In this document: positions 3,220 through 18,411 of the stretch, piece after piece
How positions within the stretch are numbered: the first letter of the stretch is position 1
How the letters are laid out: every line of letters starts with the position of its first letter
Assembly: GCA_013151335.1 (NCBI GenBank)
Contig: JAADIJ010000042.1
Span: forward strand, 6,480 to 70,479
DNA: 64,000 bases
Origin: Alphaproteobacteria bacterium
Lineage (GTDB): Bacteria > Pseudomonadota > Alphaproteobacteria > Rhodobacterales > Rhodobacteraceae
Direction of reading: 5' to 3'
Notes under the pieces: model-generated
Told to the model about the DNA's origin: nothing
The model's input: only the letters and a program-made list of their open reading frames with translations
The model's database searches: none
Made by a program: the position numbers and the translations under genes

Positions 3220-3837
3220 ATGCGCAGGCGCAACATCAACGCCTATTCGCGCTTTGTCGCTTGGGCAAAAATCATCCTGCCACTAACCGGATTGGCGATC
3301 CTCAGCGGGTTGTTTTTGTTCTCTGAAACCAGCGCGCCCGACTTGCCTGTGGGGATAACCAAGGCCGAGCTCAATGATTTTGCCAGCAAACAACGCATCA
3401 CCAATCCGCGCTTTGCCGGCATGACCACCTCGGGCATCGCCATCCAGCTTTCCGCCGCCGAGGCCAGCCCGGATAGCCGCGACGCAACCGCCTATACCGC
3501 CAATGATCTGCACGCCAAAATAGAGATGCCCGACGGGGCCACCATCGCCATTACCGCATTGCGCGGCACGATCGATTCAATCTCACGGTTTGCCCAACTG
3601 ACGGACGAAATCTCTCTGACCACATCCGACGGTTATGTGGCCAAAACCTTTGGCCTGCGCTTTTCTCTGGATCAGCTCGATATCACAAGTCAGGGCGAGA
3701 TCACCGCCAAAGGACCGCTGGGTCTGATCAAGGCTGGCGGCTTGCAAATTATATCTGAAACATCGGGCAAACGGGGTGACAGTGGCGGGTATGTTCTGCT
3801 GTTCAAAGATGGCGTAAAGCTGATATACAAGCCCTGA
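3220..3837 (+). CDS. lptC: LPS export protein LptC-like (single N-terminal TM anchor)
   Basis: 205 aa with an N-terminal TM helix IILPLTGLAILSGLFLF. The ATG abuts the kdsD stop. Called mainly from its position between kdsD and lptA; the sequence itself is weakly diagnostic. Confidence 0.6.
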   Translation: MRRRNINAYSRFVAWAKIILPLTGLAILSGLFLFSETSAPDLPVGITKAELNDFASKQRITNPRFAGMTTSGIAIQLSAAEASPDSRDATAYTANDLHAKIEMPDGATIAITALRGTIDSISRFAQLTDEISLTTSDGYVAKTFGLRFSLDQLDITSQGEITAKGPLGLIKAGGLQIISETSGKRGDSGGYVLLFKDGVKLIYKP

Positions 3838-3857
3838 CAACCGTTTATAGGCAGATT

Positions 3858-4373
3858 ATGAATAGAAAAATTAAAATATTGATCGTTGGGACTTTGGCGA
3901 TTTTCATGACCCAGACCGCTCCTGCGCTGGCGCAATCGACCTCGGTGCCGTTTGGCGGACTGAGCCACGACACCAGCCAGCAGGTCGAGATCGTGTCCGA
4001 CAGCTTCACCGTTTCGCAAAGCGACGGCACCGCCGAATTCGTCGGCAATGTTGTCGTCGGTCAGGGCGATATGCGCCTGTCAGCCGGTAAAATCGTGGTT
4101 AAATACGCGGCTGGCGACGGCAAAGCCACGGGCCGCATCAACCTTTTGATCGCCTCGGGAGGCGTCACGCTGGTCAGCGGTACCGAGGCGGCAGAGGCCA
4201 AGCGCGCGGTTTATTCGATCAAAAAGGGCAACATCGTCATGACCGGAGACGTGATCCTGACCCAAGGCAAAAACGTGTTGTCCGGCCAGAAAATGATCAT
4301 CGATCTTAAGACCGGATCGGCCAAAATCGAAGGCCGCGTCAAGACCATTTTCCAGACCGGCACCTCAAAATGA
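3858..4373 (+). CDS. lptA: LPS transport periplasmic protein LptA (OstA-like)
   Basis: Signal peptide ending APALAQ. Repetitive OstA-type strands ([43 protein letters not shown]). ATGA overlap with lptB. Confidence 0.8.
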
Positions 4374-5131
4374 CCACGGCTCCGGACCTCCAGCTTGCCG
4401 ATATCAGCGGCGGTCTCTCGGTCCGAAATCTCGGCAAAAGCTACAAGCGCCGCCGGGTGATCCATGACGTCTCGATGGACCTCAACCGAGGCGAAGTGGT
4501 AGCCCTGCTTGGTCCCAATGGTGCTGGCAAAACCACCTGTTTTTACGCAATCGCCGGTCTCGTCACACCAGAGGCCGGTCGGGTTTTCGTCGAAGGCCGC
4601 GATGTCACCACCTTGCCGATGTATCGCCGCGCGCGGCTCGGGATTGGCTATCTGCCGCAAGAGGCCTCTATTTTTCGCGGCATGACCGTTGAGGATAACA
4701 TCACGGCGATCCTTGAACGCTGGGTGCCGGATCGCAAAAAACGCCACGAGCGACTGGAGGAACTGCTGGGCGAGTTTTCCGTCGAACACCTGCGCCGCGC
4801 CTCCGCCATGTCGCTTTCCGGTGGCGAGCGTCGTCGCGTCGAGATCGCCCGCTGTCTGGCCAGCGAGCCGAAATATGTGCTGCTGGACGAGCCGTTTGCC
4901 GGTGTTGACCCAATCGCAGTCGCCGATATTCGCCACCTCGTCTCGCAGCTCAAAAATCGCGGCATCGGCGTGCTGATTACCGACCACAACGTGCGCGAGA
5001 CCCTCGGCATCGTTGATCGCGCCTATATTTTGCACGAGGGCCAAGTGCTGATGAGCGGAACTGCCGAGGAGGTCGTGAACGACGAAAACGTTCGCCGCGT
5101 CTATCTCGGCCAGAATTTCCGCATCATCTAA
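4370..5131 (+). CDS. lptB: LPS export ABC transporter ATPase LptB
   Basis: Walker [13 protein letters not shown] signature [13 protein letters not shown], Walker [13 protein letters not shown]. Confidence 0.93.
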
Positions 5132-5149: not shown

Positions 5150-6442
5150 ATGTCGCTCAAACCCGGCCTGCGCCTCAGCCAATCCCAGCGCCTGACGCTA
5201 ACCCCGGCCCTGCGCCAGTCGATCTCTGTTCTGGGCATGTCGAACTCCGAGCTGCTCGATCATGTCGAGGCCGAACTGGCCCAAAACCCGCTTTTGCTGG
5301 CCGAAACATCGCGATATTCCGGCGCTTCGGGAGATTTTGACCTCGCGCTTGATACCGTTGCCGCCCGCAAAACCCGAGGGGAAAATCTGCGCGACCAAAT
5401 CGCCCTACTTGCCGCAAATCGCCAAACCGCCCTGATCGCCGGATATCTGGCTGATGACCTGACCGACGAGGGCTATCTTTGCGACGACGACGCGGAACTG
5501 GCGCAAACGTTGAAGATCGATGTCAGCGAAATCACCAAGGCCATCTCGCTGTTGCAGCGCTGCGAGCCGACCGGGATCGGGGCCAGAAACCTGCGCGAAT
5601 GTCTTGATTTACAACTTTGCGCGCTAGAACAACCGCCACAAATTCGCGAGCTAATCCTTGATAATCTAGGCCTTTTTGCTGACTCCGATTGGGCAAAACT
5701 GCAAAATCTATCGGGCCAAAGCCGCGCCGATCTTGACATTCTAAACGATCTTTTACGCGCGCTGAACCCATTTCCGGGCGAGGATCTTTCACCCAATATG
5801 GCCGAGGTTCTTTACCCCGATATTCGCATAACACCGCTGCCCGAGGGCGGATTTTCAATCGAATCCGTCAACTCCACCTTGCCGTCGCTTACCGTGAACG
5901 CCGATTTGATGAATGAAAAATCCACCGCCAACGCTGAGGCCACACAATATTTCAACGATCGTATTTCGCGCGCCAAAATCCTGATCCGCGCGATTGAAGC
6001 ACGCTCAAAAACCATCCTGCGGGTCGGCCGGCAGATCGCGACCGAGCAACACAGGTTTTTCGCCGACGGGCACGCCCATCTGCGGCCTCTGCGTCAGATC
6101 GACGTGGCACAATCGCTCGGACTGCATCCATCAACCGTGGCCCGCGCCATCGCCAACAAGGCGCTGGAGTGTCGTTTTGGCATCCTGCCGCTCAAATTTT
6201 TCTTCACGCCGGGATTGAAGTCCCTGACCGACCAACAAGCCGTATCGGCCTATGTTATCCAACAGCGGATCACTCGGCTGGTTCATGCCGAAAATCCGGC
6301 GCAAATCCTGTCCGATGCGAAAATTACAGCGCATTTACAGCAAAGTGGAGTTGACATCGCACGCCGTACTGTAGCCAAATACAGACAATGTCTGAAAATT
6401 CCGTCGTCAGTTCAGCGCCGCAAGTCAAAGAAACTTCTTTGA
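5150..6442 (+). CDS. rpoN: RNA polymerase sigma-54 factor RpoN
   Basis: Region I LRLSQSQRLTLTPALRQSI and a C-terminal RpoN box ARRTVAKYRQCL. At 430 aa it has a short region II. Canonical position after lptB. Confidence 0.93.
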   Translation: MSLKPGLRLSQSQRLTLTPALRQSISVLGMSNSELLDHVEAELAQNPLLLAETSRYSGASGDFDLALDTVAARKTRGENLRDQIALLAANRQTALIAGYLADDLTDEGYLCDDDAELAQTLKIDVSEITKAISLLQRCEPTGIGARNLRECLDLQLCALEQPPQIRELILDNLGLFADSDWAKLQNLSGQSRADLDILNDLLRALNPFPGEDLSPNMAEVLYPDIRITPLPEGGFSIESVNSTLPSLTVNADLMNEKSTANAEATQYFNDRISRAKILIRAIEARSKTILRVGRQIATEQHRFFADGHAHLRPLRQIDVAQSLGLHPSTVARAIANKALECRFGILPLKFFFTPGLKSLTDQQAVSAYVIQQRITRLVHAENPAQILSDAKITAHLQQSGVDIARRTVAKYRQCLKIPSSVQRRKSKKLL

Positions 6443-7649: not shown

Positions 7650-9095
7650 TCACCCCTCCCAATCGCCAAACCCGAAATTCAGATAGTCCCGCACATAAAT
7701 CTCGCGGGTCTTTTTCTCGATCTCGGGGTCGTAAATCTGTGACAGGGAAAATGGCGCGAACGGCAACTCTGGCGCCTCAATCTTGCGGCCCCCCGGAAAA
7801 CCACAAATATCCTCAATATAAGCGCAAGTCGTTGCCAAGTCCTGCTCCTTCACGATGTGCATGGGCGACATAACGCCCGAAAACCCTTTGAGAACAGCGC
7901 TCTGACTGGCCCAAGCGGCATCAACGCGAAGATTGGTCTGACCAGCCAAACTCTTCTTGAGAAAACCTAAGAAATCCAGAAATGCCGCTTTATGCGCAGC
8001 CAGATCATAGCCAGTCGCATCCGCGTCGTTCTTGGGAATGCCGATCTTGAATTCGCGAATAAGCACTTTGCGAATATCTTGATAGGTTGCCTGATGAGCG
8101 GGCAAAATATAGGTGCAAAAGGCAAAATATGCCCGAGCTACCGGATGGCGAACCACGGTAATGCTCTGAAAATCACGCCGCGACCGCAGCCATTCCCGCA
8201 GGGATTTCTGGCTGAACTCACCCAAAAGCGCCGCCCCGCCAAGCGCTGTCTCATGCGCCTTGATCCAATCCACAACCGCTGCACCGGGCGCAGCTTTTAT
8301 CGGCATGAACAAAAGTGCTGCTTTGTCGCCCGCCACATATTGCGGCACGCTCGCCCCACGTCGAGGCTCAAAGCTTGGCGCGCTATTCAACCCCATCAAA
8401 TCCATGTCACCGAGAGCGCCGATCATCGCGACGAAATTGGCAACCTTGCTTTCCAGAGAGGCCGGATTTTGTTTTTTCAGCTTGCGGCTAAGCGACGGAA
8501 TTTGGTGGTTCGAGCCAAGAAACCGCGCCAAACCATTGATCACGTCAAGCGAGCCGATATCGTCGTAATTAATATAAAATGCCGTCTGCCCGCTGGTTTG
8601 CAAACCATTAAGCAGGCGCAACTGAAACTCTTGCAAGCGCTCCAGATATTCGCTGAACTCCTGCGCATCAAAGTCGATCATCGCGGTTTTTTGGTGTTTC
8701 ACGTTGGTCAGCCGCCACTGATTGGTGACAGCGGCGATCTTGCGCGACACATAGCTGTCCAGAGGGTTGCGCGTCAAAATCACCTTCGCACAATCTCGAT
8801 CCTCAAGACATCGCGCCAAGACCCTTGGATCGTGGTCGCCGAAAAACCGAAACCCCGGCATCTCGTCAGGATTGGCCGTGCACATGGCATCAAGCAACGT
8901 GATCGGGTCTTTTTGCCGCGCGCCAAGATCAATACCGAACATGTTGTCCTTTTTAGGGCCGCCAACAAAATGCGGGTTGAACAGTTCCCCGTAGCTGGTC
9001 AAATCAGGGAATAAATTGATGTTCTCTTCCAGATAGTTCGACCCGGTTCGCATATCTGCAAACACCACAAAATACCGAAATTGCCGCCCAGCCAT
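7650..9095 (-). CDS. Two-domain sulfotransferase (NodH/Stf0-like N-half fused to sulfotransferase-family-2-like C-half)
   Basis: 481 aa. N-half: FVVFADMRTGSNYLEENI (5'-PSB-like) and ILTRNPLDSYVSRKIA (3'-PB-like). C-half: LLFMPIKAAPGAAVVDWI and VVRHPVARAYFAF (RHPxxR). The start ATG overlaps the upstream GT14 stop as TGATG. Confidence 0.7.
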   Translation of the reverse strand: MAGRQFRYFVVFADMRTGSNYLEENINLFPDLTSYGELFNPHFVGGPKKDNMFGIDLGARQKDPITLLDAMCTANPDEMPGFRFFGDHDPRVLARCLEDRDCAKVILTRNPLDSYVSRKIAAVTNQWRLTNVKHQKTAMIDFDAQEFSEYLERLQEFQLRLLNGLQTSGQTAFYINYDDIGSLDVINGLARFLGSNHQIPSLSRKLKKQNPASLESKVANFVAMIGALGDMDLMGLNSAPSFEPRRGASVPQYVAGDKAALLFMPIKAAPGAAVVDWIKAHETALGGAALLGEFSQKSLREWLRSRRDFQSITVVRHPVARAYFAFCTYILPAHQATYQDIRKVLIREFKIGIPKNDADATGYDLAAHKAAFLDFLGFLKKSLAGQTNLRVDAAWASQSAVLKGFSGVMSPMHIVKEQDLATTCAYIEDICGFPGGRKIEAPELPFAPFSLSQIYDPEIEKKTREIYVRDYLNFGFGDWEG

Positions 9096-10792
9096 CAGCG
9101 CACCGCATAGGGTTTGGCGGGCGAAACAGGCTGGTCGCTCTGGCGCCCCAGCGGGAAATCACCGACCGAATGGGGGTTCATCCCCTCGTTTTTCAGCTTT
9201 TGCACGAACTGCCCAAAACCAGTCAGATCGGCCATTTTCGGCACTTCGGTCAATTTCCGGCTGGCGGTCGGATCAACCCCGTCAAGGATGGTTTGCAAGA
9301 TCGGCATCGGCGTCTCCACAAACTCCGCCAGCGACCAGATATTGACATGCGCACGCACCTCGTGTTGGCGCAGCCAGTTCACATGCCGCGCCTCAATCGA
9401 CTGATAGCGCGCCGCGACCCGACGGACCCGCTGAAAGTTTAATTTAGAGTGAAACAGCGGCACAGCCCACGCGCCGGTGATGACAAAAAAGCTGGCATTG
9501 GGGTCACCACTGGCAAAGCCCGAGATATCCTGACGGTCAGCAGGACCGAACTGAAAGCTCTGATGCTCGCCTTGCGTATTCCAGATCAGGCTGGCAAGAA
9601 ACTTCTCCGGGTTGTAGTCGCGCAACTTTGCGCTGTTAGCCAAGCACCCGTTGTAAATCGTTGCATTTCCAGCAAATTTCACCGTTCGCTTGTTAAATAA
9701 ATGGCCATGAACCCGCGTCCCTGTCCGCTTTTCCAACCACGTTTCAAAGTTGGAAAATAGATCGCTGAACCCCTCAAAAACACTGTAGGACGCGCAGGTC
9801 CGTGGCAGGTTCCACAGATGCGCTTTGGGAAAGCGGCTCTGCATTTGCAAACCATCGCGCCCGTTCAAACGCTTGTCGATGGCCTTGGCGAAAATCTTGT
9901 CGAGCTTGCGCGGATTAGGTTCGATCCGCGCGAGTTTCTTCAAATCTCCCCCCAAAAACTCGCGATAAAGTAGGTTGGCTCGGGGCCAGATCTTGCGCGC
10001 AACGAAACAATCCGAGCGCTGCAACAGTTGCAAATGATCCTCGTAAAACACATGCGGTTTTCCCTGAAAATCAAACCGTGACAGGGTTAGCGAGCGGCTT
10101 TCGATCATGGTTGAATGTTTGCGCACAAGTGTTTGAAAATAGGCCTCGTCAGGGATCCAGACTGTGCTGAAATAGCTGTCATAAACCTCGCGATCCGGGT
10201 CGGTCAAAATCGCCTCAAGCGTCTCGCGCGTCAAACACCACCATTGCGATCCAAGATGCGGCCGCACCCCCTCGGGAATGGCCCGACTGATCCCCAATCG
10301 ACGTTGCAGCTTGACGTAACCATCAAAAATCCGCCGCCGACGCTTCCACGAAAACGGAAACCGCAGCGTAAACCGCTCAAGATCAAGGCCGCCAACCGTC
10401 CAGGTCACCTCTTGCGTGGTGACAGATTCGATGAAATCGGTGCCGGCGTGCTTGTCGAGATAAGCGTTCATCTCTTCCAACGGACGCAGCGGCAGACAAG
10501 AGCCGCTGGCGAGAAAAACGTGACTAATATCGTCGGAATTGCTCAGCAACAGGGTCGCCGCGTCCAAAGTTGCCGACACGATCGAGAACCGACCCCATTC
10601 ACATGCCCGCCGTTCGACAAACCGGATATTGTCAAACCGCGCCAACCCATCCTGCAACTCGCGATAATCTTCGTCATCGGCGCGCGCATCCACATGGATC
10701 ACCACAGGACTGCGCCGCTGCGCCCAATACCCCGCAACCTGCGCCACCCGATCCAGATGCTCATGCGCCAATATGATGAACCCAACCGCCAT
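9095..10792 (-). CDS. GT14 (core-2/I-branching, 'Branch' domain)-like glycosyltransferase with an uncharacterised ~300-aa C-terminal half
   Basis: 565 aa. N-half motifs FIILAHEHLDRV, FLASGSCLPLRPLEEM and GSQWWCLTRETLEAIL resemble Branch-domain enzymes. I recognise no catalytic motif in residues ~270-565. Confidence 0.65.
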   Translation of the reverse strand: MAVGFIILAHEHLDRVAQVAGYWAQRRSPVVIHVDARADDEDYRELQDGLARFDNIRFVERRACEWGRFSIVSATLDAATLLLSNSDDISHVFLASGSCLPLRPLEEMNAYLDKHAGTDFIESVTTQEVTWTVGGLDLERFTLRFPFSWKRRRRIFDGYVKLQRRLGISRAIPEGVRPHLGSQWWCLTRETLEAILTDPDREVYDSYFSTVWIPDEAYFQTLVRKHSTMIESRSLTLSRFDFQGKPHVFYEDHLQLLQRSDCFVARKIWPRANLLYREFLGGDLKKLARIEPNPRKLDKIFAKAIDKRLNGRDGLQMQSRFPKAHLWNLPRTCASYSVFEGFSDLFSNFETWLEKRTGTRVHGHLFNKRTVKFAGNATIYNGCLANSAKLRDYNPEKFLASLIWNTQGEHQSFQFGPADRQDISGFASGDPNASFFVITGAWAVPLFHSKLNFQRVRRVAARYQSIEARHVNWLRQHEVRAHVNIWSLAEFVETPMPILQTILDGVDPTASRKLTEVPKMADLTGFGQFVQKLKNEGMNPHSVGDFPLGRQSDQPVSPAKPYAVR

Positions 10793-10798
10793 GACGCC

Positions 10799-11818
10799 TT
10801 AGATCCAGTTGCCCTTGGACATCAGCCCAAGGATCTCAAGCTGTCGCCAATTGATGTATTTCTCTGACCATTTGCACCACAGGCTCGGATTTTGACGCAT
10901 ACCCTTCTTGTAAGCCTTATATTCAAAACTATCCGCAAAGTGTTGTTTTCGCTTACTTTCTTCCTCGGCCTTGGCCTCGAAGCTATTAAGAAACTTGGCG
11001 TGCATCAAACAGCCAGAGGCCATTTCGCCGCCGGTTTCGCTGAAGGTCATGTTAAGGCCACGCGGCAAAAGCGTGTGGGTCGAGCTGACATAAATATTTC
11101 TGCGCGACCATTTCACCAGCGGGATTTTGTTCAAGGCCGGTGCGCGTTCCGGCGCGTTGGGGAAAAATGCGCGCGCGCGTGGCCCGCCCTGTATCCACAG
11201 ATTGCCATATTTCTTATTGCGTGAAATCATGTAGTTGCCCGCGTCAAAATACTCGGCAACCTCCATCGGGTTCTGGCCCTCGTGATACTCGGTCTCGTTG
11301 ACGGATTTTTTGGGATAGATATCGACCAGCATCGCCGCGAATGAGCGAACCTTGGAGGAATCGAGCCAGTCTGTCAGCGCCGCCAATGGCCGTGTGTCGC
11401 AAAACGGATAGACGAAAAATTCGTCCACATCGACCACCAGCGTCCAACGGTCATGACCATATTTGCTCAACAGCCAGTTGAGCCAATCCATGCCGAAATG
11501 AGCGCTCTTATAACTGGCAGTCGTGCCCCAAACCGAGGCATCCGATTGCTCGGCCAGATATTCCCTGCTGCCATCGTCAGAGCCATTATCCACGAATAAA
11601 AAATGCCCGACCCCGAGATTGCGGTAATATTCCATGAAAAACGGCAGCCGCACCCGTTCATTTCGCAACGTGCAAAACAACAAGATATCATCCGCGCGCA
11701 GATCGGCCGTACGGTTAACAACGCCGTTCAGCTCCCTGCTTTTTCGCAAAGCCCGAACTCGTCGCTTTTTCCGCTCAAGCCTGAGTTTGTAAGAACTCAA
11801 CAGACCCACAAGCCGCAC
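10799..11818 (-). CDS. Glycosyltransferase family 2-like protein (paralogue A)
   Basis: 339 aa. FLFVDNGSDDGSREYL (GT2 DxD-region) and VVDVDEFF. Basic N-terminus KLRLERKKRRVRALRK. Roughly half the residues match ORF 12084..13112 by eye. The start codon is uncertain (GTG 11818 or 11809). Confidence 0.7.
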   Translation of the reverse strand: MRLVGLLSSYKLRLERKKRRVRALRKSRELNGVVNRTADLRADDILLFCTLRNERVRLPFFMEYYRNLGVGHFLFVDNGSDDGSREYLAEQSDASVWGTTASYKSAHFGMDWLNWLLSKYGHDRWTLVVDVDEFFVYPFCDTRPLAALTDWLDSSKVRSFAAMLVDIYPKKSVNETEYHEGQNPMEVAEYFDAGNYMISRNKKYGNLWIQGGPRARAFFPNAPERAPALNKIPLVKWSRRNIYVSSTHTLLPRGLNMTFSETGGEMASGCLMHAKFLNSFEAKAEEESKRKQHFADSFEYKAYKKGMRQNPSLWCKWSEKYINWRQLEILGLMSKGNWI

Positions 11819-12083
11819 CTTTCCTCAACACACACCAAAACTCCCGCAATTATGCAGACAGTCTCGCAGACGAATCTGAAGATATGGTCAAACTGCTCAA
11901 TCCGGCCTGAAATACTTTCAGACCCGCCCCCGCATTTGCCTCAACGCTCCTGATCCCCGTTTATGACTTGTCCGCCCGAGAATTCATTTGGCCCGAAGAT
12001 ATGAGTTATCCACAATCAAGTAAAGTCACCAAACCACCGAGGCCACTCGATAATCACCATTAAACCAAGGGATTATGGCCCTA

Positions 12084-13112
12084 TTATGGCCGCCAGTCGC
12101 CCTGCGACATCAGCCCCAGCTCGGCCAGTTGCTGCCAGCCCTCATAGTGTAGCGAAGCCTCGCACCACATATCCGGGTTTGCCATCAAGCCGTCGTAATA
12201 GTGGTCATAGCGGCTGCTATAGGTGAAATGCTCTTGGCGCTGTTTTTCCTCGCGGGATTTGTCAATCACCACATGCAGAAATTTGCTGTGCAGCAACACG
12301 CCGGTAGGCGGGTTTTGCGCTGATTGACCGAACACCTTATTAAGGCGACGCGGCAAAATGGCGTGGGTCGAGCTGACATAGGCAAAGCGCCGGTTCCATT
12401 TGACCAACGGGATTTTGTTGAGATGCGGCGCATGGCTCGGCTCGTTCGGGAAAAACACCCGCCCGCGAACGCCGCCCTGCACCGACAGATAATAAGTCCG
12501 ATCCTGCATTTTGGAGATATAATCATCGTGATCAAACCAGCACAAAATCTCGAACGGGTTCTGACCCGAGCGATAAATCTGCCGATCAAGTCGCCCTTTT
12601 GGATACATATCAAGCATCAAAGCCCCAAAAGACGGGATCGAGCGCGCGTCGAGCCAGCCCGTTAACGCCCGCAACGGGCGCGTCTCGTTGTCAGGATAAA
12701 CGAGGATTTCATCGGCATCGACACTCAGACACCAATGCCCGTGACCATGGCGAATTTGCAACCAAGTCAGCCAATCGACCCCGAACCGCGACTTTTTGTA
12801 GCTGTGAGTGCTGCCCCAAACCGACACATCCGGCTGCTCGGCCAGGTATTCGCGCGTGCCGTCATCGCTGTTATTGTCGACAATAAGAAAATGCTCAACG
12901 CCAAGCGCACGGTAATGTTTGAGGAAAAACGGCAGCCGCAAAATCTCGTTGCGAACGGTTGAAAAGCCCAAAATAGCGTCGCGCGTAATCTGCCTAGTCC
13001 GGTTGCGCACCACCGAAAGCTGGTGGCGCTTTCTAAGCGCGCGCCACAGCAACCACCGCCGTTTCAAACGCAGCTTATAGGCCATCCAGAGTTTGGAGGA
13101 GGTGCTTTGCAT
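12084..13112 (-). CDS. Glycosyltransferase family 2-like protein (paralogue B)
   Basis: 342 aa. FLIVDNNSDDGTREYL and SVDADEIL. Basic N-terminus KLRLKRRWLLWRALRKR. ATG at 13112, with an alternative ATG at 13085. Confidence 0.7.
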   Translation of the reverse strand: MQSTSSKLWMAYKLRLKRRWLLWRALRKRHQLSVVRNRTRQITRDAILGFSTVRNEILRLPFFLKHYRALGVEHFLIVDNNSDDGTREYLAEQPDVSVWGSTHSYKKSRFGVDWLTWLQIRHGHGHWCLSVDADEILVYPDNETRPLRALTGWLDARSIPSFGALMLDMYPKGRLDRQIYRSGQNPFEILCWFDHDDYISKMQDRTYYLSVQGGVRGRVFFPNEPSHAPHLNKIPLVKWNRRFAYVSSTHAILPRRLNKVFGQSAQNPPTGVLLHSKFLHVVIDKSREEKQRQEHFTYSSRYDHYYDGLMANPDMWCEASLHYEGWQQLAELGLMSQGDWRP

Positions 13113-13128
13113 TACTCAATTCCTGCGC

Positions 13129-14118
13129 TCAACCCTCGTAATGCCCCGATTGATGCCACCGCCACGCATCGCCAATCATCTGCGCCATATCAGAGCGATC
13201 AGGGCTCCACCCCAGCTCGGCCTTAGCCCGCTGACTGGCGCTGACCAGCTTGGTACAATCCCCGGCCCGGCGCAGACCCAGCACATGAGGGATTTCGCGA
13301 TTGGTCACACTCCCCGCCTGATCCATCACCTCTTTGACAGAAAAGCCACTGCCCGTGCCAAGATTAAACACCCGCCCGCCCTTGCCAGCAAGCAGCCATT
13401 CCAGCCCCAGAATATGCGCGTCAACCAGATCGCTGACATGGACATAATCGCGAATACAGGTGCCATCCGGCGTGTCATAATCCGTGCCAAAAATCGTCAA
13501 CGCATCACGCCGCCCGATAATCGAGTCAAGTATAAGCGGCACAAGATGCGTCTCCGGTCGATGAAACTCGCCAATTTCAGCCTCGGGATCGGCCCCGGCC
13601 ACGTTGAAATAACGAAAAATCACATTGGTCATGCCGTCGCTGGCCGCGAAATTCCCCAGCATGTCCTCGATCGCCTTTTTGCTAGAGCCATAGGCGTTGA
13701 TCGGCTGTTGCACGCATGTCTCGTCCAACATCACCCCGTCTTGCTCGCCATACGTGGCACAGGTTGACGAAAACACCATATTCTTGCAATCCGCCGCAAC
13801 CATCGCCTCGATCAGCGCCAGTGAGCCGGCCACATTGTCGTGCCAATAACGCCCCGGCTCGCGCATGGATTGGGCCACATCCGACAGGCCACCAAAATGC
13901 ATCACCGCCAGCGGTTGGTATTTCTCAAACACCTGATCAAGCCGCACGCGATCCGTTAAATCGCCCTGTTCCAAAGGCCCGAACTTAACCGCATCTGCCC
14001 AACCCGTGCTAAGATTATCATAGGTTACAGGACAAAAACCCGCTTGTTTCAACGCCTTACAAGCATGAGAGCCGATATACCCAGCGCCGCCCGTAACCAA
14101 AATATTACGTGTTTTCAT
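13129..14118 (-). CDS. galE: UDP-glucose 4-epimerase
   Basis: Rossmann VTGGAGYIGSH and catalytic YGSSK (YxxxK). 329 aa. Confidence 0.92.
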   Translation of the reverse strand: MKTRNILVTGGAGYIGSHACKALKQAGFCPVTYDNLSTGWADAVKFGPLEQGDLTDRVRLDQVFEKYQPLAVMHFGGLSDVAQSMREPGRYWHDNVAGSLALIEAMVAADCKNMVFSSTCATYGEQDGVMLDETCVQQPINAYGSSKKAIEDMLGNFAASDGMTNVIFRYFNVAGADPEAEIGEFHRPETHLVPLILDSIIGRRDALTIFGTDYDTPDGTCIRDYVHVSDLVDAHILGLEWLLAGKGGRVFNLGTGSGFSVKEVMDQAGSVTNREIPHVLGLRRAGDCTKLVSASQRAKAELGWSPDRSDMAQMIGDAWRWHQSGHYEG

Positions 14119-14139
14119 GATATCCCCAAATATCCCAGA

Positions 14140-15036
14140 TTATTCCGCCGCGCCACCCGAGGCCACCAGATCGCGTAAAAATGCTCCGAACTCGTCGCGC
14201 AGATCCTCACGCGCCAGACCAAACGCCACCGTCGCCTTCAAAAATCCAGCCTTAGAGCCGCAATCAAACCGCCGCCCGTCAAACCGATAGCCATAAACAT
14301 TGTCCGAAACCTCGATCTCATGCGCAATCGCGTCGGTTAGCTGAATTTCCCCGCCAGAGCCGATCATTTTTTGCCCAAGGTTTTTCAAAATATTCGGCGT
14401 CAGAATATAACGACCAATCACCGCCATATTAGACGGCTCCTGCCCCGGAGCGGGCTTTTCAACCATGCCTTTCACCGACATAAGCTTGCCGATTTCCCCG
14501 CGCACATCCAGCAACCCATAAGAGCCAGCCTCGCTCGCAGGCACCTCCATCGTCGCCACCATATTGCCGCCGATTTCCTGATAAGCGTCGATCATCTGCT
14601 TCAGACACGGCGTATCGGCGGAAATAACGTCGTCGGGCAGGATCACCGCGAACGGCTCGTTGTTGCGCATCAATCGGCGCGCGCACCAAACCGCATGACC
14701 CAGACCCAGCGGCTCTCGTTGGCGAATATAGGCAATCTCGCCGCTTTCCATCGTTGTGCGTTTTAGCGCCTGAAGCATCTCTTTTTTGTTTTGTTTTCTG
14801 AGACTTGTCTCAAGTATTGGGGCAGCGTCGAAATAGTCCTCAAGCGCACCTTTGCCTCGTGATGTGACAAAAATGAACTCCTTGATCCCGGCCTCGCGCG
14901 CCTCGTCAATCGCGTATTGGATCAACGGGCGATCCACCAGCGACATGATCTCTTTGGGAATGGATTTGGTCGCAGGCAAAAACCGTGTGCCCAGACCGGC
15001 CACCGGCAATATCGCCTTGGTCACTTTATTACGCAT
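14140..15036 (-). CDS. galU: UTP-glucose-1-phosphate uridylyltransferase
   Basis: AILPVAGLGTRFLPATKSIPKE signature. I place the start at ATG 15036 (MRNKVTKA...); the ORF-track start 15063 is an upstream GTG. Confidence 0.92.
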   Translation of the reverse strand: MRNKVTKAILPVAGLGTRFLPATKSIPKEIMSLVDRPLIQYAIDEAREAGIKEFIFVTSRGKGALEDYFDAAPILETSLRKQNKKEMLQALKRTTMESGEIAYIRQREPLGLGHAVWCARRLMRNNEPFAVILPDDVISADTPCLKQMIDAYQEIGGNMVATMEVPASEAGSYGLLDVRGEIGKLMSVKGMVEKPAPGQEPSNMAVIGRYILTPNILKNLGQKMIGSGGEIQLTDAIAHEIEVSDNVYGYRFDGRRFDCGSKAGFLKATVAFGLAREDLRDEFGAFLRDLVASGGAAE

Positions 15037-15130
15037 GTTTTCCCACCAATCCAATGCAGGCACTTGCCTGATTTACCGTTACCAAAGCGTTAATATTTCA
15101 GAAATGCGGAGTAAATATGGCCAAGACGTC

Positions 15131-15931
15131 TCAAGCAACCCCCATCTCCGCCAGCTTTCGCTCAATCCTCGGCACATCCTCGGGGTTGTTCAGCTCCCAA
15201 AACGCGCGCCCCTTACCGTCAACCTCGACACATTGCACCGGCCAACCGTTCTCCATAAACCGAAGCTGCTCCAGCCCCTCAAAGGTTTCCAGCGGGCCAG
15301 CTTTCCAGCCAAGATACGCATCAAGCGCTGCCGGTCGATAGGCGTAAACCCCCACATGATGAAACACCGGCACTTGCTCGTTTGCCCCAAAATCGCGCCC
15401 TGTAAACGGGATCACTTCCTTGCTGAAATAAAGCGCGCGACCCTTGCCATCAAACACCGCTGTCGTGCCGCCAACACGGTCATTGCGACGATCCTCGCGA
15501 AAGCCCGCAAGCGCCTCCACATCGCAGCGAAGCACCGGCGTCGCCACCTGAATTTCGGGGTTTTCTTGCATCGCGCTCACCAAATCTTCGACAAACCAAT
15601 GGGGCGTCAGCGGCGCATCTCCTTGCAAATTAACCACGATATCATAAGGCTGTCCCAGCCGCGAAAGCGCATCAGCGCAGCGTTCGGTCCCATTGCCGCA
15701 CTCTTCAGACGTCATGATAACATCGGCTCCGAAGTCTTTGGAAGCGTTGTATATTCTCTCATCATCCGTGGCGACCACGACCCTATCAATACCGGCAACA
15801 CTAACGGCAGCCTCCCAGCTTCGACGGATCAAGGTTTTGGCCTCGCCCCTCGCCCCTCGAAGCGCCACCAACGGCTTGCCGGGGTATCGACTAGAGGCAT
15901 AGCGCGCGGGGATGACGATCAGAACGCTCAT
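15131..15931 (-). CDS. kdsB: 3-deoxy-manno-octulosonate cytidylyltransferase (CMP-Kdo synthetase)
   Basis: N-terminus MSVLIVIPARYASSRYPGKPL. 266 aa. Confidence 0.9.
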   Translation of the reverse strand: MSVLIVIPARYASSRYPGKPLVALRGARGEAKTLIRRSWEAAVSVAGIDRVVVATDDERIYNASKDFGADVIMTSEECGNGTERCADALSRLGQPYDIVVNLQGDAPLTPHWFVEDLVSAMQENPEIQVATPVLRCDVEALAGFREDRRNDRVGGTTAVFDGKGRALYFSKEVIPFTGRDFGANEQVPVFHHVGVYAYRPAALDAYLGWKAGPLETFEGLEQLRFMENGWPVQCVEVDGKGRAFWELNNPEDVPRIERKLAEMGVA

Positions 15932-15934
15932 CCC

Positions 15935-16717
15935 TTAAGGTGCCTTCAATTCAACGCCGGGTGCGTAGGCGATGAAAAACGGATTGGCATAATCCGGCTT
16001 GCCATAAGCCAGCGTGGTGTGATCGTCAAACCGAACCACCTGCCCACCTGCACCCGATAAAACCGCATGACCCGCTGCCGTGTCCCACTCCATCGTGCGG
16101 CCGAGTCGCGGGTAAAGATCAGCCTCGCCCGTGGCCACAAGACAGAACTTCAACGACGAACCGGCACTAGCGCTATCCTTGAGCGCATATTTGTTAATAT
16201 AGTCGTCAGTCGCCTGATCGCGGTGCGATTTAGAGGCCACCACCACCAACCCCTGATTGTCCGGCTTCGCCACATGGATTGGCGCTGTCGGCCCGATCTT
16301 GTCCACACTATGCGCACCACTTTCCTCGACCGATTGCCCGTCAGCATCGGTATAAAACAGCCGTTTTCGTGCAGGCGCGTAAACCACGCCCCGAATGGGC
16401 ACACCGTTTTCCACATAGGCGATATTGACGGTAAAATCACCGCGCCGCTTGATAAACTCCTTGGTGCCATCGAGCGGATCAACGATGACAAAGGTGTTGC
16501 CGCGAACCTGATGTGTGTCTGATTGCTCCTCCGTCACCAGCACCATATCGGGAAACGCCGCTCGAATTCCCGCCGAGATCAGCGCATCCGCTGCCTCATC
16601 CGCTGCCGTGACCGGACTGTTGTCGGACTTTGAGCGGATATCAAAATCATCACTCTCATAGACCTCCATGATCTTGGCACCGGCTTGCAAAGCCAATGCG
16701 CGAAACACCTCTGTCAT
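15935..16717 (-). CDS. cysQ: 3'(2'),5'-bisphosphate nucleotidase (PAP phosphatase)
   Basis: IMPase-fold motifs VDPLDGTKEF and WDTAAGHAVL. N-terminus MTEVFRALALQAGAKIMEVYE aligns with CysQ-type starts. The ORF-track start 16741 is GTG. Confidence 0.85.
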   Translation of the reverse strand: MTEVFRALALQAGAKIMEVYESDDFDIRSKSDNSPVTAADEAADALISAGIRAAFPDMVLVTEEQSDTHQVRGNTFVIVDPLDGTKEFIKRRGDFTVNIAYVENGVPIRGVVYAPARKRLFYTDADGQSVEESGAHSVDKIGPTAPIHVAKPDNQGLVVVASKSHRDQATDDYINKYALKDSASAGSSLKFCLVATGEADLYPRLGRTMEWDTAAGHAVLSGAGGQVVRFDDHTTLAYGKPDYANPFFIAYAPGVELKAP

Positions 16718-16902
16718 GTGGCTAAAGTCCAACTCGACCACCTCCCGAAACTGTGAATTTCGACCTTGTCGCCGAATTCTTGATATTTTTTCCTATCGCT
16801 CTTATGATGCGGCCTTAATCGAACAGCAAGGTTTCAAACAATAAAATCAGGCGAAACCGAACCAGACCGGCCTTCAATCGGCCAAAACCACTACAGGCAG
16901 GT

Positions 16903-17727
16903 GTGATGCTTCAATACGAGAACCAGAATTCCGGCCTGTGGGCATTTGTGCGCATCTCTGATTTGCTCTATCACACAACCGTGCGGGTGGTGCGCAAGAC
17001 CAACCGCAATGCGCTGACCGGGCTTATCCAAAACATCCTGCAATCGGCGGTGCTGATCGCGGTATTTTACCTGATGTTTGCGTTTTTCGGCATTCGCAGC
17101 AGTGCGCTGCGCGGCGATTTTATGATTTATCTGATGACCGGAATTTTCCTGTTTTTGACCCACACCAAGACCATGGGCGCGGTTGTCGGCTCTGAAGGGC
17201 CAGCCTCGGCGATCATGAAACACGCACCGATGACCACTTTTATCAGTATCTCGTCGGCAGCTTTTGCCGCTCTTTACCTGCAAATTCTGTCGCTTGGGGT
17301 TATTTTATTTGTGTTTGACGTGGCCGTAAGACCTGTGGTGATCGAAGATCCCGCCGGTGTTTTTCTGGCCTTTATTATGGCTTGGCTCAGCGGAATTGCG
17401 ATCGGGCTTATCTTTCTGTCGATCAAGCCGTTCGCGCCAAATATCTCCTCGGTCGGGGTAATGATTTATTCGCGCGCCAATTTGATCTTTAGCGGCAAGA
17501 TGTTTGTCGCCAATCAGTTGCCCGCCTATATGCTGCCCTATTTCACTTGGAATCCACTGTTTCACACCATTGATCAGGCGCGCGGTGCGGCGTTCATCAA
17601 TTACACGCCACACGTGACTTCGATGATGTATCCTGTATACTTTAGTCTGGTGTTGTTGGTGATCGGCATGATGGCCGAGTTCTTTGCCCGCCAGAACGCC
17701 TCGGCCAGTGGAGAAGGAATGAAATAG
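16903..17727 (+). CDS. ABC-2 type polysaccharide export permease (KpsM-like)
   Basis: 274 aa with about 6 predicted TM segments. The WNPLFHTIDQARGAAF motif resembles KpsM WNPLVHVVE. No ABC ATPase gene is adjacent. Confidence 0.7.
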   Translation: MMLQYENQNSGLWAFVRISDLLYHTTVRVVRKTNRNALTGLIQNILQSAVLIAVFYLMFAFFGIRSSALRGDFMIYLMTGIFLFLTHTKTMGAVVGSEGPASAIMKHAPMTTFISISSAAFAALYLQILSLGVILFVFDVAVRPVVIEDPAGVFLAFIMAWLSGIAIGLIFLSIKPFAPNISSVGVMIYSRANLIFSGKMFVANQLPAYMLPYFTWNPLFHTIDQARGAAFINYTPHVTSMMYPVYFSLVLLVIGMMAEFFARQNASASGEGMK

Positions 17728-17754: not shown

Positions 17755-18411
17755 ATGTTGTTTTATAAATCATTTATTGCTGCCGTTATCCTATTTGTTA
17801 CCAGCCTTATCGTCGTACCTGCCTCGGCGCAGATCGCACTTGGCACCTATGACGTCGCCAATGTCGCCAGCAATGATGTGCTGAATATTCGCCAGCGGGC
17901 TGATGCGTCTGCCTTGAAAATTGGCGCACTGCCGTTTGATCTGACCGAGATCGAGGTCATCGCCGCCTCTCGCAACGGCAAATGGGGTCTGGTCAATTAT
18001 CAAGGCGTGATCGGCTGGGTTTCCACCAGATATTTACAGCCAAGCGCCACCATCATCGCCGACTTGCCTGCAGGCTTGGAGTGCAGCGGAACCGAGCCGT
18101 TCTGGTCGCTCTCGTTCCTGCTCGATGGCAGTGCTGTCGGCGATTGGAGCCCGCTGGGATTGGCCAACGCTCGACAAAGCTTTTACAACGGCTACTGGTC
18201 AGACACCCCCATGAACCGACCCGACCAATCCTACGCATTCACCCTGCAAAACGAGACCACAACCTCCGGCGTTCGCGCCTCGGGCATCATCAGACAAGCC
18301 GCGTGCAATGACGGCATGTCTGATCAAACCTACGGCTATGCCATTGATGTGTTGCTCAGCGGTCAGGGGCAAACTTATGTGACGGGCTGCTGCTCGATGG
18401 CCTCTAATTAG
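17755..18411 (+). CDS. Secreted SH3b-domain protein with Cys-containing C-terminal domain
   Basis: Signal peptide ...VVPASAQ. SH3b-like LNIRQRADASALKIGAL...GKWGLVNYQGVIGWVSTRYL. The C-half has CSGTEPFWSL and a C-terminal GCCS. Confidence 0.55.
   Translation: MLFYKSFIAAVILFVTSLIVVPASAQIALGTYDVANVASNDVLNIRQRADASALKIGALPFDLTEIEVIAASRNGKWGLVNYQGVIGWVSTRYLQPSATIIADLPAGLECSGTEPFWSLSFLLDGSAVGDWSPLGLANARQSFYNGYWSDTPMNRPDQSYAFTLQNETTTSGVRASGIIRQAACNDGMSDQTYGYAIDVLLSGQGQTYVTGCCSMASN

What the first reader, a model, noticed from the sequence alone, without database searches (positions are those of the whole stretch)
7650..17727. Nine-kb co-directional locus predicting a sulfated, Kdo-associated surface glycan built by an uncharacterised enzyme set
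Seen in sequence:
- Eight minus-strand genes run from 16717 down to 7650 with tiny spacers: cysQ-kdsB 3 nt, galU-galE 21 nt, galE-GT2b 16 nt, GT2a-GT14 6 nt.
- The GT14 stop and the sulfotransferase start overlap as TGATG.
- Only two larger gaps interrupt the run: 94 nt (kdsB-galU) and 265 nt (GT2b-GT2a).
- A kpsM-like ABC-2 permease diverges from cysQ.

Established knowledge:
- CysQ removes PAP, the inhibitory by-product of PAPS-dependent sulfotransferases.
- KdsB activates Kdo.
- GalU and GalE supply UDP-Glc and UDP-Gal.
- KpsM-type permeases export Kdo-anchored polysaccharides.

Inference: the locus makes and exports a sulfated hexose-containing glycan, either a capsule or an LPS decoration. 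The catalytic core is a GT14-like enzyme with an unknown C-terminal half, two GT2 paralogues with basic N-termini, and a fused double sulfotransferase. It matches no characterised capsule or LPS pathway that I know. GT14 plus sulfotransferases is a combination better known from eukaryotic mucin and glycosaminoglycan synthesis.
Basis: partly seen in the sequence, partly recalled or inferred. Interest (0 to 1): 0.72.

Follow-up and report, generated by a model that had tools for sequence, protein, structure and literature searches.

The report
Conserved sulfated-glycan operon of Rhodobacteraceae
This is a real, uncharacterised gene cluster, inherited across the marine Rhodobacteraceae, that most likely builds and exports a sulfated sugar chain for the cell envelope; its link to Kdo and to a classical capsule is not established.

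Summary
Eight minus-strand genes (7650-16717) lie at the stated spacings, with a divergent KpsM-family permease.

Profile and fold searches confirm CysQ, KdsB, GalU, GalE, two PF13704 GT-A glycosyltransferases, a GT14 enzyme fused to DUF5927, and a two-domain sulfotransferase.

New findings:
- **Family-wide locus.** In 97 related loci, GT2a sits beside GT14 in 84/84, the sulfotransferase follows in 76/78, and permease, cysQ and galU are present in 29-30 of 31. It almost always lies between dnaK and ptsN-hpf-lptBAC-kdsD.
- **One convincing sulfotransferase domain.** The N-terminal NodH/Stf0-like domain has invariant PAPS motifs. The C-terminal Sulfotransfer_2-like domain has lost the key Lys and Ser.
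- **Two exclusive cassettes.** GT2b occurs alone (20 loci, as here), or a GT4-like gene plus a 417-aa GT2 (32 loci).
- **The 265-nt gap is a relic** of the displaced GT4-like gene.
- **Weak Kdo link.** kdsB and galE are dispensable locus members, and kdsB sits beside kdsD-lptCAB.
- **No export partners or PAPS genes.** KpsT/E/D/C/S and cysDN/C are absent from the window.
- **Recurring pairing.** GT14-fusion genes lie beside sulfotransferases in Paracoccus and Shinella too.

Best reading: a conserved sulfated envelope glycan, exported capsule-like or as an LPS-core decoration. No literature was found on it.

The parts
7650..9095 (-). Two-domain sulfotransferase, 481 aa. The N-terminal domain (about residues 1-235, nt 8391-9095) is NodH/Stf0-like and predicted active. 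The C-terminal domain (about residues 236-481, nt 7653-8390) is Sulfotransfer_2-like and degenerate.
   Evidence: N half: matches PDB 9vki 'LPS sulfotransferase NodH', E 3.4e-5. M15-R-T-G-S-N20 and R109, N110, S117 are invariant in 34/34 orthologues.

C half: Pfam PF03567 at 25.3 bits against a cut-off of 22, matched by 9/12 orthologues. hhalign to a canonical Sulfotransfer_2 protein gives probability 90.7%, but only from position 73 onward. At the PSB-equivalent position the residues are K14 R11 A5 Q3 G1, and the 3'-PB Ser is replaced.

AlphaFold2 model pLDDT 86.9. Foldseek top hits are sulfotransferases 3rnl, 3-OST and Stf0.
9095..10792 (-). GT14 (Branch) glycosyltransferase fused to DUF5927, 565 aa.
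   Evidence: Pfam Branch E 1e-19 (residues 12-247) and DUF5927 E 2.4e-128 (residues 266-565).

A profile matches human xylosyltransferase 1 at E 7e-10. HVD, GSQWW and IPDE216 align to XT1 HVDKR, GSDWF and PAES.

Foldseek: XT1 5.5e-11, C2GnT 5.7e-9. Model pLDDT is only 66.8.

DUF5927 has only 218 clusters among 1.84 billion representatives. All 10 full-length divergent members tested are Branch+DUF5927.
10799..11818 (-). GT2a: PF13704 (Glyco_tranf_2_4) GT-A glycosyltransferase, 339 aa, with a basic N-terminus. It is the invariant partner of the GT14 gene.
   Evidence: Pfam PF13704 E 3.4e-32, with a weak GT92 hit at E 0.006, below cut-off.

Invariant DNxSxDG and D130-x-D132-E133.

Adjacent to GT14 in 84/84 loci.

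A 44%-identical homologue also abuts a GT14-like gene on Shinella plasmid pShin-11.
11853..12026 (-). Relic of the 3' end of a displaced GT4-like glycosyltransferase gene, inside the 265-nt GT2b-GT2a spacer (11819-12083).
   Evidence: blastn gives 78% identity over 175 nt to the end of the GT4-like gene of L006, E 3e-36. tblastn gives 62% over 34 aa, window 12025-11924.

My own reading of the frame in the sequence shows in-frame stop codons.
12084..13112 (-). GT2b: paralogue of GT2a (51% identity), 342 aa. It is the variable cassette gene.
   Evidence: Pfam PF13704 E 3.5e-34. Alignment.

Present in 20 of 53 loci with a fully visible interior, and never together with the GT4-like + GT2(417 aa) pair.
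13129..14118 (-). GalE, UDP-glucose 4-epimerase. Facultative member of the locus.
   Evidence: TIGR01179 at 393.5 bits against a cut-off of 262. Present in 12/31 loci.
14140..15036 (-). GalU, UTP-glucose-1-phosphate uridylyltransferase. Probable start at ATG 15036; the ORF extends to GTG 15063.
   Evidence: TIGR01099 at 320.9 bits, just under the cut-off of 326.8. Present in 30/31 loci.
15131..15931 (-). KdsB, CMP-Kdo synthetase. Probably the housekeeping copy.
   Evidence: NF003950 at 346 bits against a cut-off of 234.

Present in 25/31 loci and absent in, for example, L003 and L015.

kdsD-lptC-lptA-lptB lie at 2242-5131.
15935..16717 (-). CysQ, 3'(2'),5'-bisphosphate nucleotidase (PAP phosphatase). 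First gene of the run.
   Evidence: TIGR01331 at 257.8 bits against a cut-off of 228.8. Present in 29/31 loci at 66-79% identity.
16780..16830 (.). Conserved divergent promoter-like region between cysQ and the permease gene.
   Evidence: The + strand has TTGATA-17-TATGAT (10/12 matches) at 16780-16808.

On the cysQ strand, CTTGC.GTTC ... ATAA is conserved at 80% or more in 51 aligned intergenic regions.

Promoter function is inferred and was not tested.
16906..17727 (+). KpsM-family ABC-2 permease, 273 aa from ATG 16906. No ATPase gene is adjacent.
   Evidence: NCBIfam VexB E 4e-10 and KpsM E 6e-8, both below cut-off; no Pfam hit.

A profile of 11 orthologues matches the 8tsh 'Transport permease protein' chain at E 3.8e-9, positions 19-265 of 268. 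It was the only PDB hit at E <= 1.

Present in 30/31 loci. Sources name it 'ABC-type polysaccharide/polyol phosphate export permease'.
17755..18411 (+). SH3_3-domain protein with a hydrophobic, signal-peptide-like N-terminus, 218 aa. Downstream partner of the permease.
   Evidence: Pfam SH3_3 E 1.1e-8. The hydrophobic N-terminus is visible in the translation.

It follows the permease in related loci. In Sulfitobacter the two genes overlap by 4 nt, and the product also hits UCP028175.

Best explanation
The run cysQ-kdsB-galU-galE-GT2b-GT2a-GT14/DUF5927-sulfotransferase is a vertically inherited operon. It assembles a sulfated envelope glycan on the cytoplasmic side of the inner membrane.

**Proposed steps**
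1. GalU, and GalE where present, supply UDP-Glc and UDP-Gal.
2. Two glycosyltransferases are always adjacent:
   - GT2a, a DxD-type GT-A enzyme with a basic, probably membrane-seeking N-terminus.
   - The GT14-DUF5927 enzyme, an inverting GT-A whose catalytic-Glu motif IPDE is conserved.
   These two build the conserved part of the glycan, possibly by alternating.
3. An exchangeable cassette adds the variable part. Here it is GT2b; elsewhere it is a GT4-like enzyme plus a 417-aa GT2.
4. The NodH/Stf0-like N-terminal domain of the 481-aa protein transfers sulfate from PAPS. Its degenerate Sulfotransfer_2-like C-terminal domain probably binds acceptor or nucleotide rather than catalysing.
5. CysQ removes the inhibitory PAP.
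6. The divergently transcribed KpsM-family permease, with its periplasmic SH3 partner, most likely forms part of the exporter. Its ATPase and outer-membrane components would be encoded elsewhere.

**Shown:** the gene identities, motifs, folds and synteny.
**Inferred:** the order of action, the donor sugars, the acceptor, the export route, and that kdsB serves general LPS synthesis rather than this glycan specifically.
For: **Gene and domain identities:**

**Motifs**
- Invariant PAPS-binding motifs in the N-domain.
- Invariant DxD in GT2a/b.
- HVD, GSQWW and IPDE align to XT1.

**Synteny**
- GT2a-GT14 adjacent in 84/84 loci.
- Sulfotransferase downstream in 76/78.
- cysQ 29/31, galU 30/31, permease 30/31.

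**Conservation**
- Locus proteins are 40-79% identical across loci, like flanking ptsN and hpf (51-77%).
- GC matches the surroundings.

**Other support**
- Mutually exclusive GT cassettes, 32 versus 20 loci, plus a relic of the displaced gene in this window.
- A conserved shared intergenic promoter-like motif.
- Sulfotransferases lie near paralogous GT14 fusions in Paracoccus and Shinella, and in Shinella a GT2a homologue abuts the GT14-like gene.
- A sulfated O-polysaccharide has been reported from Poseidonocella sedimentorum, a genus I place in Rhodobacteraceae from my own knowledge (PMC9912281).
Against: - No ABC ATPase, KpsE/D, KpsC/S, Wza/Wzc or priming transferase lies in the locus. None is in the 64-kb window, and none was seen in the related loci inspected gene by gene.
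- No PAPS-synthesis genes are in the window.
- Two loci cleanly lack the sulfotransferase yet keep cysQ. One lacks cysQ yet keeps the sulfotransferase.
- The function of DUF5927 is unknown, and the model of that protein is only moderate (pLDDT 66.8).
- Such strong conservation is unusual for an exported capsule.
- No promoter or terminator signal exceeds chance inside the run.
- No experimental data exist for any orthologue in the searched literature.
Confidence: 0.5

Rival explanations
1. The locus builds and sulfates the LPS core (lipooligosaccharide outer core) on lipid A-Kdo. The product is flipped by MsbA. The two cassettes are two core types. The KpsM-like permease belongs to a different process.
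For: - Family-wide, housekeeping-like conservation and a fixed chromosomal site beside kdsD-lptC-lptA-lptB, usually with kdsB included.
- Only three or four glycosyltransferases, and no polymer-export or chain-length genes.
- Two discrete cassette types, reminiscent of core types.
- PF13704 glycosyltransferases occur in Acinetobacter LOS outer-core loci (PMC10327509).
- Sources name orthologues 'LPS sulfotransferase NodH'.
Against: - The permease and SH3 pair stays with the locus (30/31), including where a flank differs (L001, L017), and shares a conserved intergenic region with cysQ.
- No WaaA, heptosyltransferase or O-antigen ligase gene is in the window.
- No GT14 enzyme is known to me to act in LPS core synthesis (own knowledge).
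Confidence: 0.3
2. The product is another sulfated glycoconjugate that is neither a capsule nor LPS. Candidates are a sulfated glycolipid or oligosaccharide (as Stf0 makes sulfotrehalose for sulfolipid-1), a periplasmic glucan decoration, or a protein-linked glycan (as the GT14 relative XT1 glycosylates protein).
For: - The N-domain resembles Stf0 and NodH, which sulfate small saccharides.
- The closest solved GT14 relative is a peptide O-xylosyltransferase.
- The set of enzymes is small, with no polymerase or priming transferase.
- GalU is universal in the locus.
Against: - The KpsM-family permease is a polysaccharide or glycolipid exporter type.
- Three or four glycosyltransferases with a variable cassette suggest a larger glycan.
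- There are no lipid-synthesis or acceptor-protein genes in the locus.
Confidence: 0.12
3. The adjacency is partly historical rather than functional. cysQ, kdsB, galU and galE would be general housekeeping genes that happen to lie beside a three-gene glycosyltransferase/sulfotransferase module.
For: - kdsB and galE are dispensable members (25/31 and 12/31).
- Loci exist with cysQ but no sulfotransferase, and the reverse.
- The whole region between dnaK and lptB is conserved housekeeping synteny.
Against: - cysQ and galU are retained at 29-30 of 31 loci, with 3-nt to 21-nt spacers and one strand.
- From my own knowledge, many alphaproteobacteria assimilate sulfate through APS reductase. If so, PAP removal is mainly needed for sulfotransferases.
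- There is a conserved promoter-like motif upstream of cysQ.
Confidence: 0.08

Closest known systems
Group 2 (Kps) ABC-transporter-dependent capsule systems, e.g. E. coli K1/K5 (KpsMT-KpsED, KpsCS, KpsFU)
   Same: - A KpsM-family permease (profile match to the 8tsh chain).
- Cytoplasmic glycosyltransferases without transmembrane segments.
- CMP-Kdo synthetase and arabinose-5-P isomerase genes nearby.
   Different: - No KpsT next to KpsM. No KpsE/D and no KpsC/S in the window, and none seen in the related loci inspected.
- The biosynthetic genes are conserved across a whole family instead of being serotype-variable.
- kdsB and kdsD look like the housekeeping LPS copies.
Rhizobial sulfated surface polysaccharides (Sinorhizobium meliloti LpsS, Mesorhizobium loti KpsS, NodH; recalled from own knowledge, not re-read here)
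   Same: PAPS-dependent sulfation of LPS or capsule in alphaproteobacteria. The N-domain is NodH-like.
   Different: Those sulfotransferases are single-domain proteins. As far as I recall they are not embedded in an operon with GT14-DUF5927, PF13704 glycosyltransferases and cysQ. Orthology to them was not tested here.
Eukaryotic GT14 enzymes (xylosyltransferase 1, core-2 beta-1,6-GlcNAc transferase) acting with Golgi sulfotransferases in glycosaminoglycan and mucin synthesis
   Same: GT14 fold and motifs, including the catalytic-Glu motif. Pairing with sulfotransferases.
   Different: Here the enzyme is cytoplasmic and bacterial and is fused to the bacteria-specific DUF5927. Identity is 14-19%. 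The donor and acceptor are unknown.
Paralogous bacterial modules: Paracoccus Branch+DUF5928 with an adjacent Sulfotransfer_2 gene; Shinella pShin-11 Branch + PF13704 GT with Sulfotransfer_3 and Galactosyl_T genes nearby
   Same: A GT14-fusion gene next to or near a sulfotransferase. In Shinella the GT14 and GT2a-like genes are adjacent (44% identity to GT2a).
   Different: - The C-terminal domain differs: DUF5928, or only a weak DUF5927 match.
- The sulfotransferase families and surroundings differ.
- These modules are also uncharacterised.

Membership tests
Group 2 / Kps-type capsule system | KpsM-type ABC-2 permease | tested here: met
   A profile of 11 orthologues matches the 8tsh 'Transport permease protein' chain, E 3.8e-9, positions 19-265 of 268, the only PDB hit at E <= 1. 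I recall 8tsh as a KpsMT-KpsE structure; this is from memory. NCBIfam KpsM and VexB scores are far below the equivalog cut-offs, so this is a family-level relative, not an orthologue.
Group 2 / Kps-type capsule system | KpsT ATPase encoded with KpsM | tested here: not met
   The gene after the permease is an SH3_3 protein. No ABC ATPase other than lptB is in the window. None is adjacent in the related loci inspected. The rest of the genome is not visible.
Group 2 / Kps-type capsule system | KpsE/KpsD periplasmic and outer-membrane export proteins and KpsC/KpsS beta-Kdo transferases | tested here: not met
   No such Pfam families appear among the ORFs of at least 150 aa in the 64-kb window or in the called genes of L001, L003 and L017. 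Presence elsewhere in the genome could not be tested.
Group 2 / Kps-type capsule system | Dedicated Kdo supply genes (KpsF/KpsU paralogues) | tested here: inconclusive
   KdsB and a SIS+CBS KdsD-like gene are present. However, they sit in the canonical kdsD-lptCAB neighbourhood, and kdsB is absent from 6/31 loci. Copy number in the genome is unknown.
PAPS-dependent sulfotransferase (NodH/Stf0-like), N-terminal domain | 5'-phosphosulfate-binding loop and 3'-phosphate-binding R...S motif on a P-loop-like fold | tested here: met
   MRTGSN and R109/N110/S117 are invariant in 34/34 orthologues. PDB NodH match E 3.4e-5. Foldseek hits sulfotransferases.
Sulfotransfer_2 (PF03567), C-terminal domain | Pfam match above the gathering score | tested here: met
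   25.3-26.9 bits against a cut-off of 22. 9/12 orthologues match. hhalign probability 90.7% to a canonical member.
Sulfotransfer_2 (PF03567), C-terminal domain | Conserved PSB-loop lysine (PKxGxT) and 3'-PB serine needed for PAPS binding and catalysis | tested here: not met
   The Pfam and hhalign matches start only at profile position 70-73. The equivalent loop is P-[IVL]-[K14 R11 A5 Q3 G1]-x-x-P. The Ser position is variable (A/F/H/R...).
Glycosyltransferase family 14 (Branch) | Branch-domain match, GT-A fold like XT1/C2GnT, conserved catalytic Glu in the xPxE motif | tested here: met
   PF02485 at 71.6 bits against a cut-off of 23.4. Foldseek XT1 5.5e-11 and C2GnT 5.7e-9. IPDE216 aligns to XT1 PAES and is invariant.
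CysQ 3'(2'),5'-bisphosphate nucleotidase | Equivalog model above the trusted cut-off | tested here: met
   TIGR01331 at 257.8 bits against a cut-off of 228.8.
LPS core (waa-like) biosynthesis locus | Enzymes acting on lipid A-Kdo (WaaA, core glycosyltransferases of known families, ligase) and a truncated LPS in mutants | not testable with these tools
   No WaaA or ligase is in the window. The acceptor specificity of these glycosyltransferases cannot be read from sequence.

The most novel reading that the evidence does not exclude
Rhodobacteraceae carry a family-wide 'common antigen'. It would be a sulfated, glycosaminoglycan- or poly-LacNAc-like polymer built by alternating action of a eukaryote-type GT14 enzyme (with DUF5927 as a new accessory or catalytic domain) and a GT92-like PF13704 enzyme. 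It would be sulfated by a catalytic/pseudo-catalytic sulfotransferase fusion. Export would go through a KpsM-family permease working with a periplasmic SH3 protein, that is, an export arrangement different from classical KpsMT-ED. Such a polymer could shape interactions of roseobacters with algae, phages and gene transfer agents.
Probability: 0.15. Interest if true: 0.8.

Novelty: new variant of a known kind. Interest (0 to 1): 0.55.

Why it matters
Roseobacter-group and related Rhodobacteraceae are among the most abundant and best-studied marine heterotrophs. Their surface chemistry governs attachment to algae, phage and gene-transfer-agent adsorption, and particle colonisation.

A sulfated glycan locus conserved at one chromosomal site across the family, with only two cassette variants, would be a tractable genetic handle on a shared envelope component. 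It would also give a first functional context for DUF5927, for bacterial GT14 enzymes, and for a sulfotransferase/pseudo-sulfotransferase fusion.

If instead it is an LPS-core decoration, it would be a family-wide case of LPS sulfation.

Tried and rejected
- **Are the two sulfotransferase halves duplicates?** hhalign probability 0.8%, so they are different families.
- **Is DUF5927 a hidden sulfotransferase or a second GT14 domain?** hhalign probability is at most 8.7%, so no support. Foldseek on the full model reported only the N-terminal GT-A domain.
- **GT2a/b profile against the PDB:** nothing useful (GmaR, E 0.29).
- **C-domain profile against PDB sequences:** nothing.
- **Rfam scan of the whole window:** no hits. 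**tRNA scan:** none.
- **Promoter and terminator scan of the locus:** counts are near the shuffled expectation.
- **Literature.** No paper on DUF5927, and none linking NodH or a sulfotransferase to roseobacters or Rhodobacterales.
  - The Rhodobacter capsulatus GTA-receptor capsule is a different, strain-variable locus (rcc01081-86) exported by wza/wzb/wzc (PMC10218006).
  - My recollection that Poseidonocella makes a sulfated Kdo polymer was checked. The review cites GlcA2S3Ac and Kdn9Me for P. sedimentorum, not Kdo. It is therefore not evidence for a Kdo link.
- **Reaching distant relatives.** The genome-contig scan with a single protein returned only 13 loci. The metagenome scan with a divergent alignment kept only the 80 closest loci. 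Contexts of distant (<50% identical) Branch-DUF5927 genes were not seen, except on plasmids.
- **A relic of the 417-aa GT2 in the 94-nt kdsB-galU gap:** none found.

Full report
**1. Observation**

The eight minus-strand ORFs and the divergent plus-strand ORF exist as described.
- The spacers are 3, 21, 16 and 6 nt.
- The GT14 stop and the sulfotransferase start overlap as TGATG.
- The 94-nt and 265-nt gaps hold with the ATG 15036 start for galU and the GTG 11818 start for GT2a.

GC content of the run (0.53-0.555) does not stand out from the window.

A consensus promoter and terminator scan found nothing above shuffled expectation inside the run. Co-transcription therefore rests on spacing and conservation.

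**2. Gene identities**

| Gene | Evidence |
|---|---|
| CysQ | TIGR01331, above cut-off |
| KdsB | NF003950, above cut-off |
| GalU | TIGR01099, just under cut-off |
| GalE | TIGR01179, above cut-off |
| GT2a, GT2b | PF13704 GT-A proteins |
| 565-aa protein | Branch/GT14 domain plus Pfam DUF5927 |
| 481-aa protein | C-terminal Sulfotransfer_2 match |

- The N-terminal half of the 481-aa protein matches a solved 'LPS sulfotransferase NodH', E 3.4e-5.
- The GT14 domain matches human xylosyltransferase 1 by sequence. It matches XT1 and C2GnT by fold. The motifs HVD, GSQWW and IPDE are conserved.
- The permease has no Pfam hit and only sub-threshold VexB/KpsM hits. A profile of 11 orthologues matches the permease chain of PDB entry 8tsh at E 3.8e-9 over its full length, the only PDB hit. 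I recall that entry as a KpsMT-KpsE structure.
- The gene after the permease encodes an SH3_3 protein with a hydrophobic, signal-peptide-like N-terminus, not an ATPase.

**3. The sulfotransferase fusion**

In 34 orthologues the N-domain motifs MRTGSN (5'-PSB) and R109/N110/S117 (3'-PB) are invariant.

The C-domain is a true Sulfotransfer_2 relative.
- Pfam scores are above the cut-off, and 9 of 12 orthologues match.
- hhalign probability to a canonical member is 90.7%.
- The match starts only at position 70-73.
- The loop equivalent to PKxGxT reads P-[IVL]-[K14 R11 A5 Q3 G1]-x-x-P.
- The 3'-PB serine is replaced.

The two halves are not detectably related to each other.

The AlphaFold2 model is confident (pLDDT 86.9). 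Its best PDB matches are sulfotransferases: 3rnl, 3-OST and Stf0.

I conclude that there is one catalytic domain plus one probably non-catalytic, sulfotransferase-derived domain. This is inferred from the motifs.

**4. Surroundings**
- Upstream lie an exonuclease gene, kdsD (SIS+CBS), lptC, lptA, lptB, rpoN, hpf and ptsN.
- Downstream lie dnaK and dnaJ.
- The rest of the window is housekeeping: mutS, grpE, hrcA, parAB, gidAB, mnmE, rho, maf, aroE, coaE, secB, infB, nusA and others.
- There is no kpsT/E/D/C/S and no cysDN/cysC.

**5. Conservation**

The sulfotransferase, the GT14-DUF5927 protein and the permease each have thousands of homologues in Rhodobacteraceae/Paracoccaceae. These are full-length and 45-80% identical. 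The window's own proteins come from an alphaproteobacterial MAG.

I collected 97 related loci and mapped the window's proteins onto them.

| Feature | Loci with it / loci with enough flank |
|---|---|
| GT2a directly upstream of GT14 | 84/84 |
| Sulfotransferase downstream | 76/78 |
| ptsN next | 64/70 |
| Permease | 30/31 |
| cysQ | 29/31 |
| galU | 30/31 |
| kdsB | 25/31 |
| galE | 12/31 |
| GT2b | 10/31 |

- Two loci cleanly lack the sulfotransferase, and one lacks cysQ.
- Identities of the locus proteins (40-79%) resemble those of flanking ptsN and hpf.
- This pattern is that of a vertically inherited, purified trait, not of a hypervariable antigen locus.

**6. Two cassettes and a relic**

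Where GT2b is absent, two other genes are present:
- a GT4-like gene (382-426 aa) in its place;
- a GT2 gene (about 417 aa) between kdsB and galU.

Among 53 loci with a visible interior, 32 have GT4-like + GT2(417) and 20 have GT2b alone. They are never mixed.

The window's 265-nt GT2b-GT2a spacer contains a 175-nt relic of the GT4-like gene's 3' end (78% identity, E 3e-36). By my reading of the frame it has in-frame stops. It also shows that a cassette replacement occurred in this lineage.

**7. Regulatory region**

The cysQ-permease intergenic regions of 51 loci share a motif on the cysQ strand, CTTGC.GTTC ... ATAA. It overlaps a plus-strand TTGATA-17-TATGAT site at 16780-16808. This suggests divergent overlapping promoters and a regulatory link between the permease-SH3 pair and the operon. 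This is an inference.

**8. DUF5927 and paralogues**

DUF5927 is a small family: 218 clusters at 50% identity among 1.84 billion representatives. It has a single architecture, and 10/10 full-length divergent members are Branch+DUF5927. Its fold could not be assigned.

Related fusions also sit by sulfotransferases:
- In Paracoccus, a Branch+DUF5928 gene is divergent from a canonical Sulfotransfer_2 gene.
- On Shinella plasmid pShin-11, a Branch protein with a weak DUF5927 match is followed by a 44%-identical GT2a homologue. Sulfotransfer_3 and Galactosyl_T genes lie nearby.

The GT14-sulfotransferase pairing is thus recurrent in alphaproteobacteria.

**9. Interpretation**

The data support a conserved operon for a sulfated glycan. 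Its parts are:
- an invariant two-enzyme core (GT2a plus GT14-DUF5927);
- a swappable cassette;
- one active sulfotransferase domain;
- PAP removal by CysQ.

The export route is open. A KpsM-family permease argues for capsule-like export. Against that stand the missing partner genes, the housekeeping-like conservation and the position beside the LPS genes, which make an LPS-core decoration a serious rival.

The specific claim of Kdo association is weak. kdsB is a facultative member next to kdsD-lptCAB.

**10. Literature**

No paper in the searchable library treats this locus, DUF5927, or sulfotransferases of roseobacters.
- A sulfated O-polysaccharide has been reported from Poseidonocella sedimentorum, with GlcA2S3Ac and Kdn9Me (PMC9912281). 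No genes are attached to it. I place the genus in Rhodobacteraceae from my own knowledge.
- The Rhodobacter capsulatus capsule is a different, strain-variable locus exported by wza/wzb/wzc (PMC10218006).
- PF13704 enzymes are uncharacterised. They occur, for example, in Acinetobacter LOS outer-core loci (PMC10327509).

**11. Verdict**
- It is an uncharacterised variant of a known kind of system (a cytoplasmic, nucleotide-sugar-dependent envelope-glycan pathway with sulfation).
- It is notable for its family-wide conservation and its enzyme set.
- Interest is moderate at 0.55. The locus is a good experimental target, but nothing in the sequence forces a mechanism outside known glycan biology.

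Noticed in passing
window 39468-39901: Probable chromosomal replication origin. Five DnaA-box-like sites (at most 1 mismatch to TTATCCACA) cluster at 39578-39890. They lie in the low-GC intergenic region between a UPF0093/HemJ-like gene (39015-39467) and maf (39902). parAB, gidAB, mnmE and rho are just upstream.
   Followed up: partly
window 5150-6442: rpoN lies between lptB and hpf here. It is absent from that position in many related loci, such as L001, L003 and L008-L012. Where present it is only 39-53% identical, much less conserved than its neighbours.
   Followed up: no
L048 and L092 (11690-11820); L020 (3547-3710): Natural variants exist. Two metagenomic loci go directly from GT14-DUF5927 to ptsN with no sulfotransferase gene, yet keep cysQ. 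One locus lacks cysQ but keeps the sulfotransferase. These would be useful natural controls.
   Followed up: partly
L001 15318-20986: Some relatives carry a second polysaccharide export set just beyond lptC and rnd. It comprises an ABC ATPase (217 aa), a 526-aa protein with no Pfam hit, an ABC2_membrane permease and an 832-aa GT2+GT1 fusion. It is absent from this window, where 1-1470 holds two ORFs without Pfam hits.
   Followed up: partly
L099 (Paracoccus plasmid pNSM5TCa) 11028-13569: A Branch+DUF5928 fusion (525 aa) is divergently paired with a canonical Sulfotransfer_2 gene (272 aa). The pair sits among housekeeping genes (rpmF-plsX-fabH, polA). It is a second, apparently uncharacterised GT14-sulfotransferase module.
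   Followed up: partly
window 52458-53435 and 50178-52454: A 325-aa ORF with no Pfam match lies next to a 758-aa TPR-repeat protein, upstream of infB-nusA-rimP.
   Followed up: no
window 12006-12014: A perfect TTATCCACA (DnaA-box consensus) lies inside the GT4-like gene relic. It corresponds to conserved coding sequence (…VDNSY…) of the intact gene in other loci, so it is probably coincidental.
   Followed up: partly
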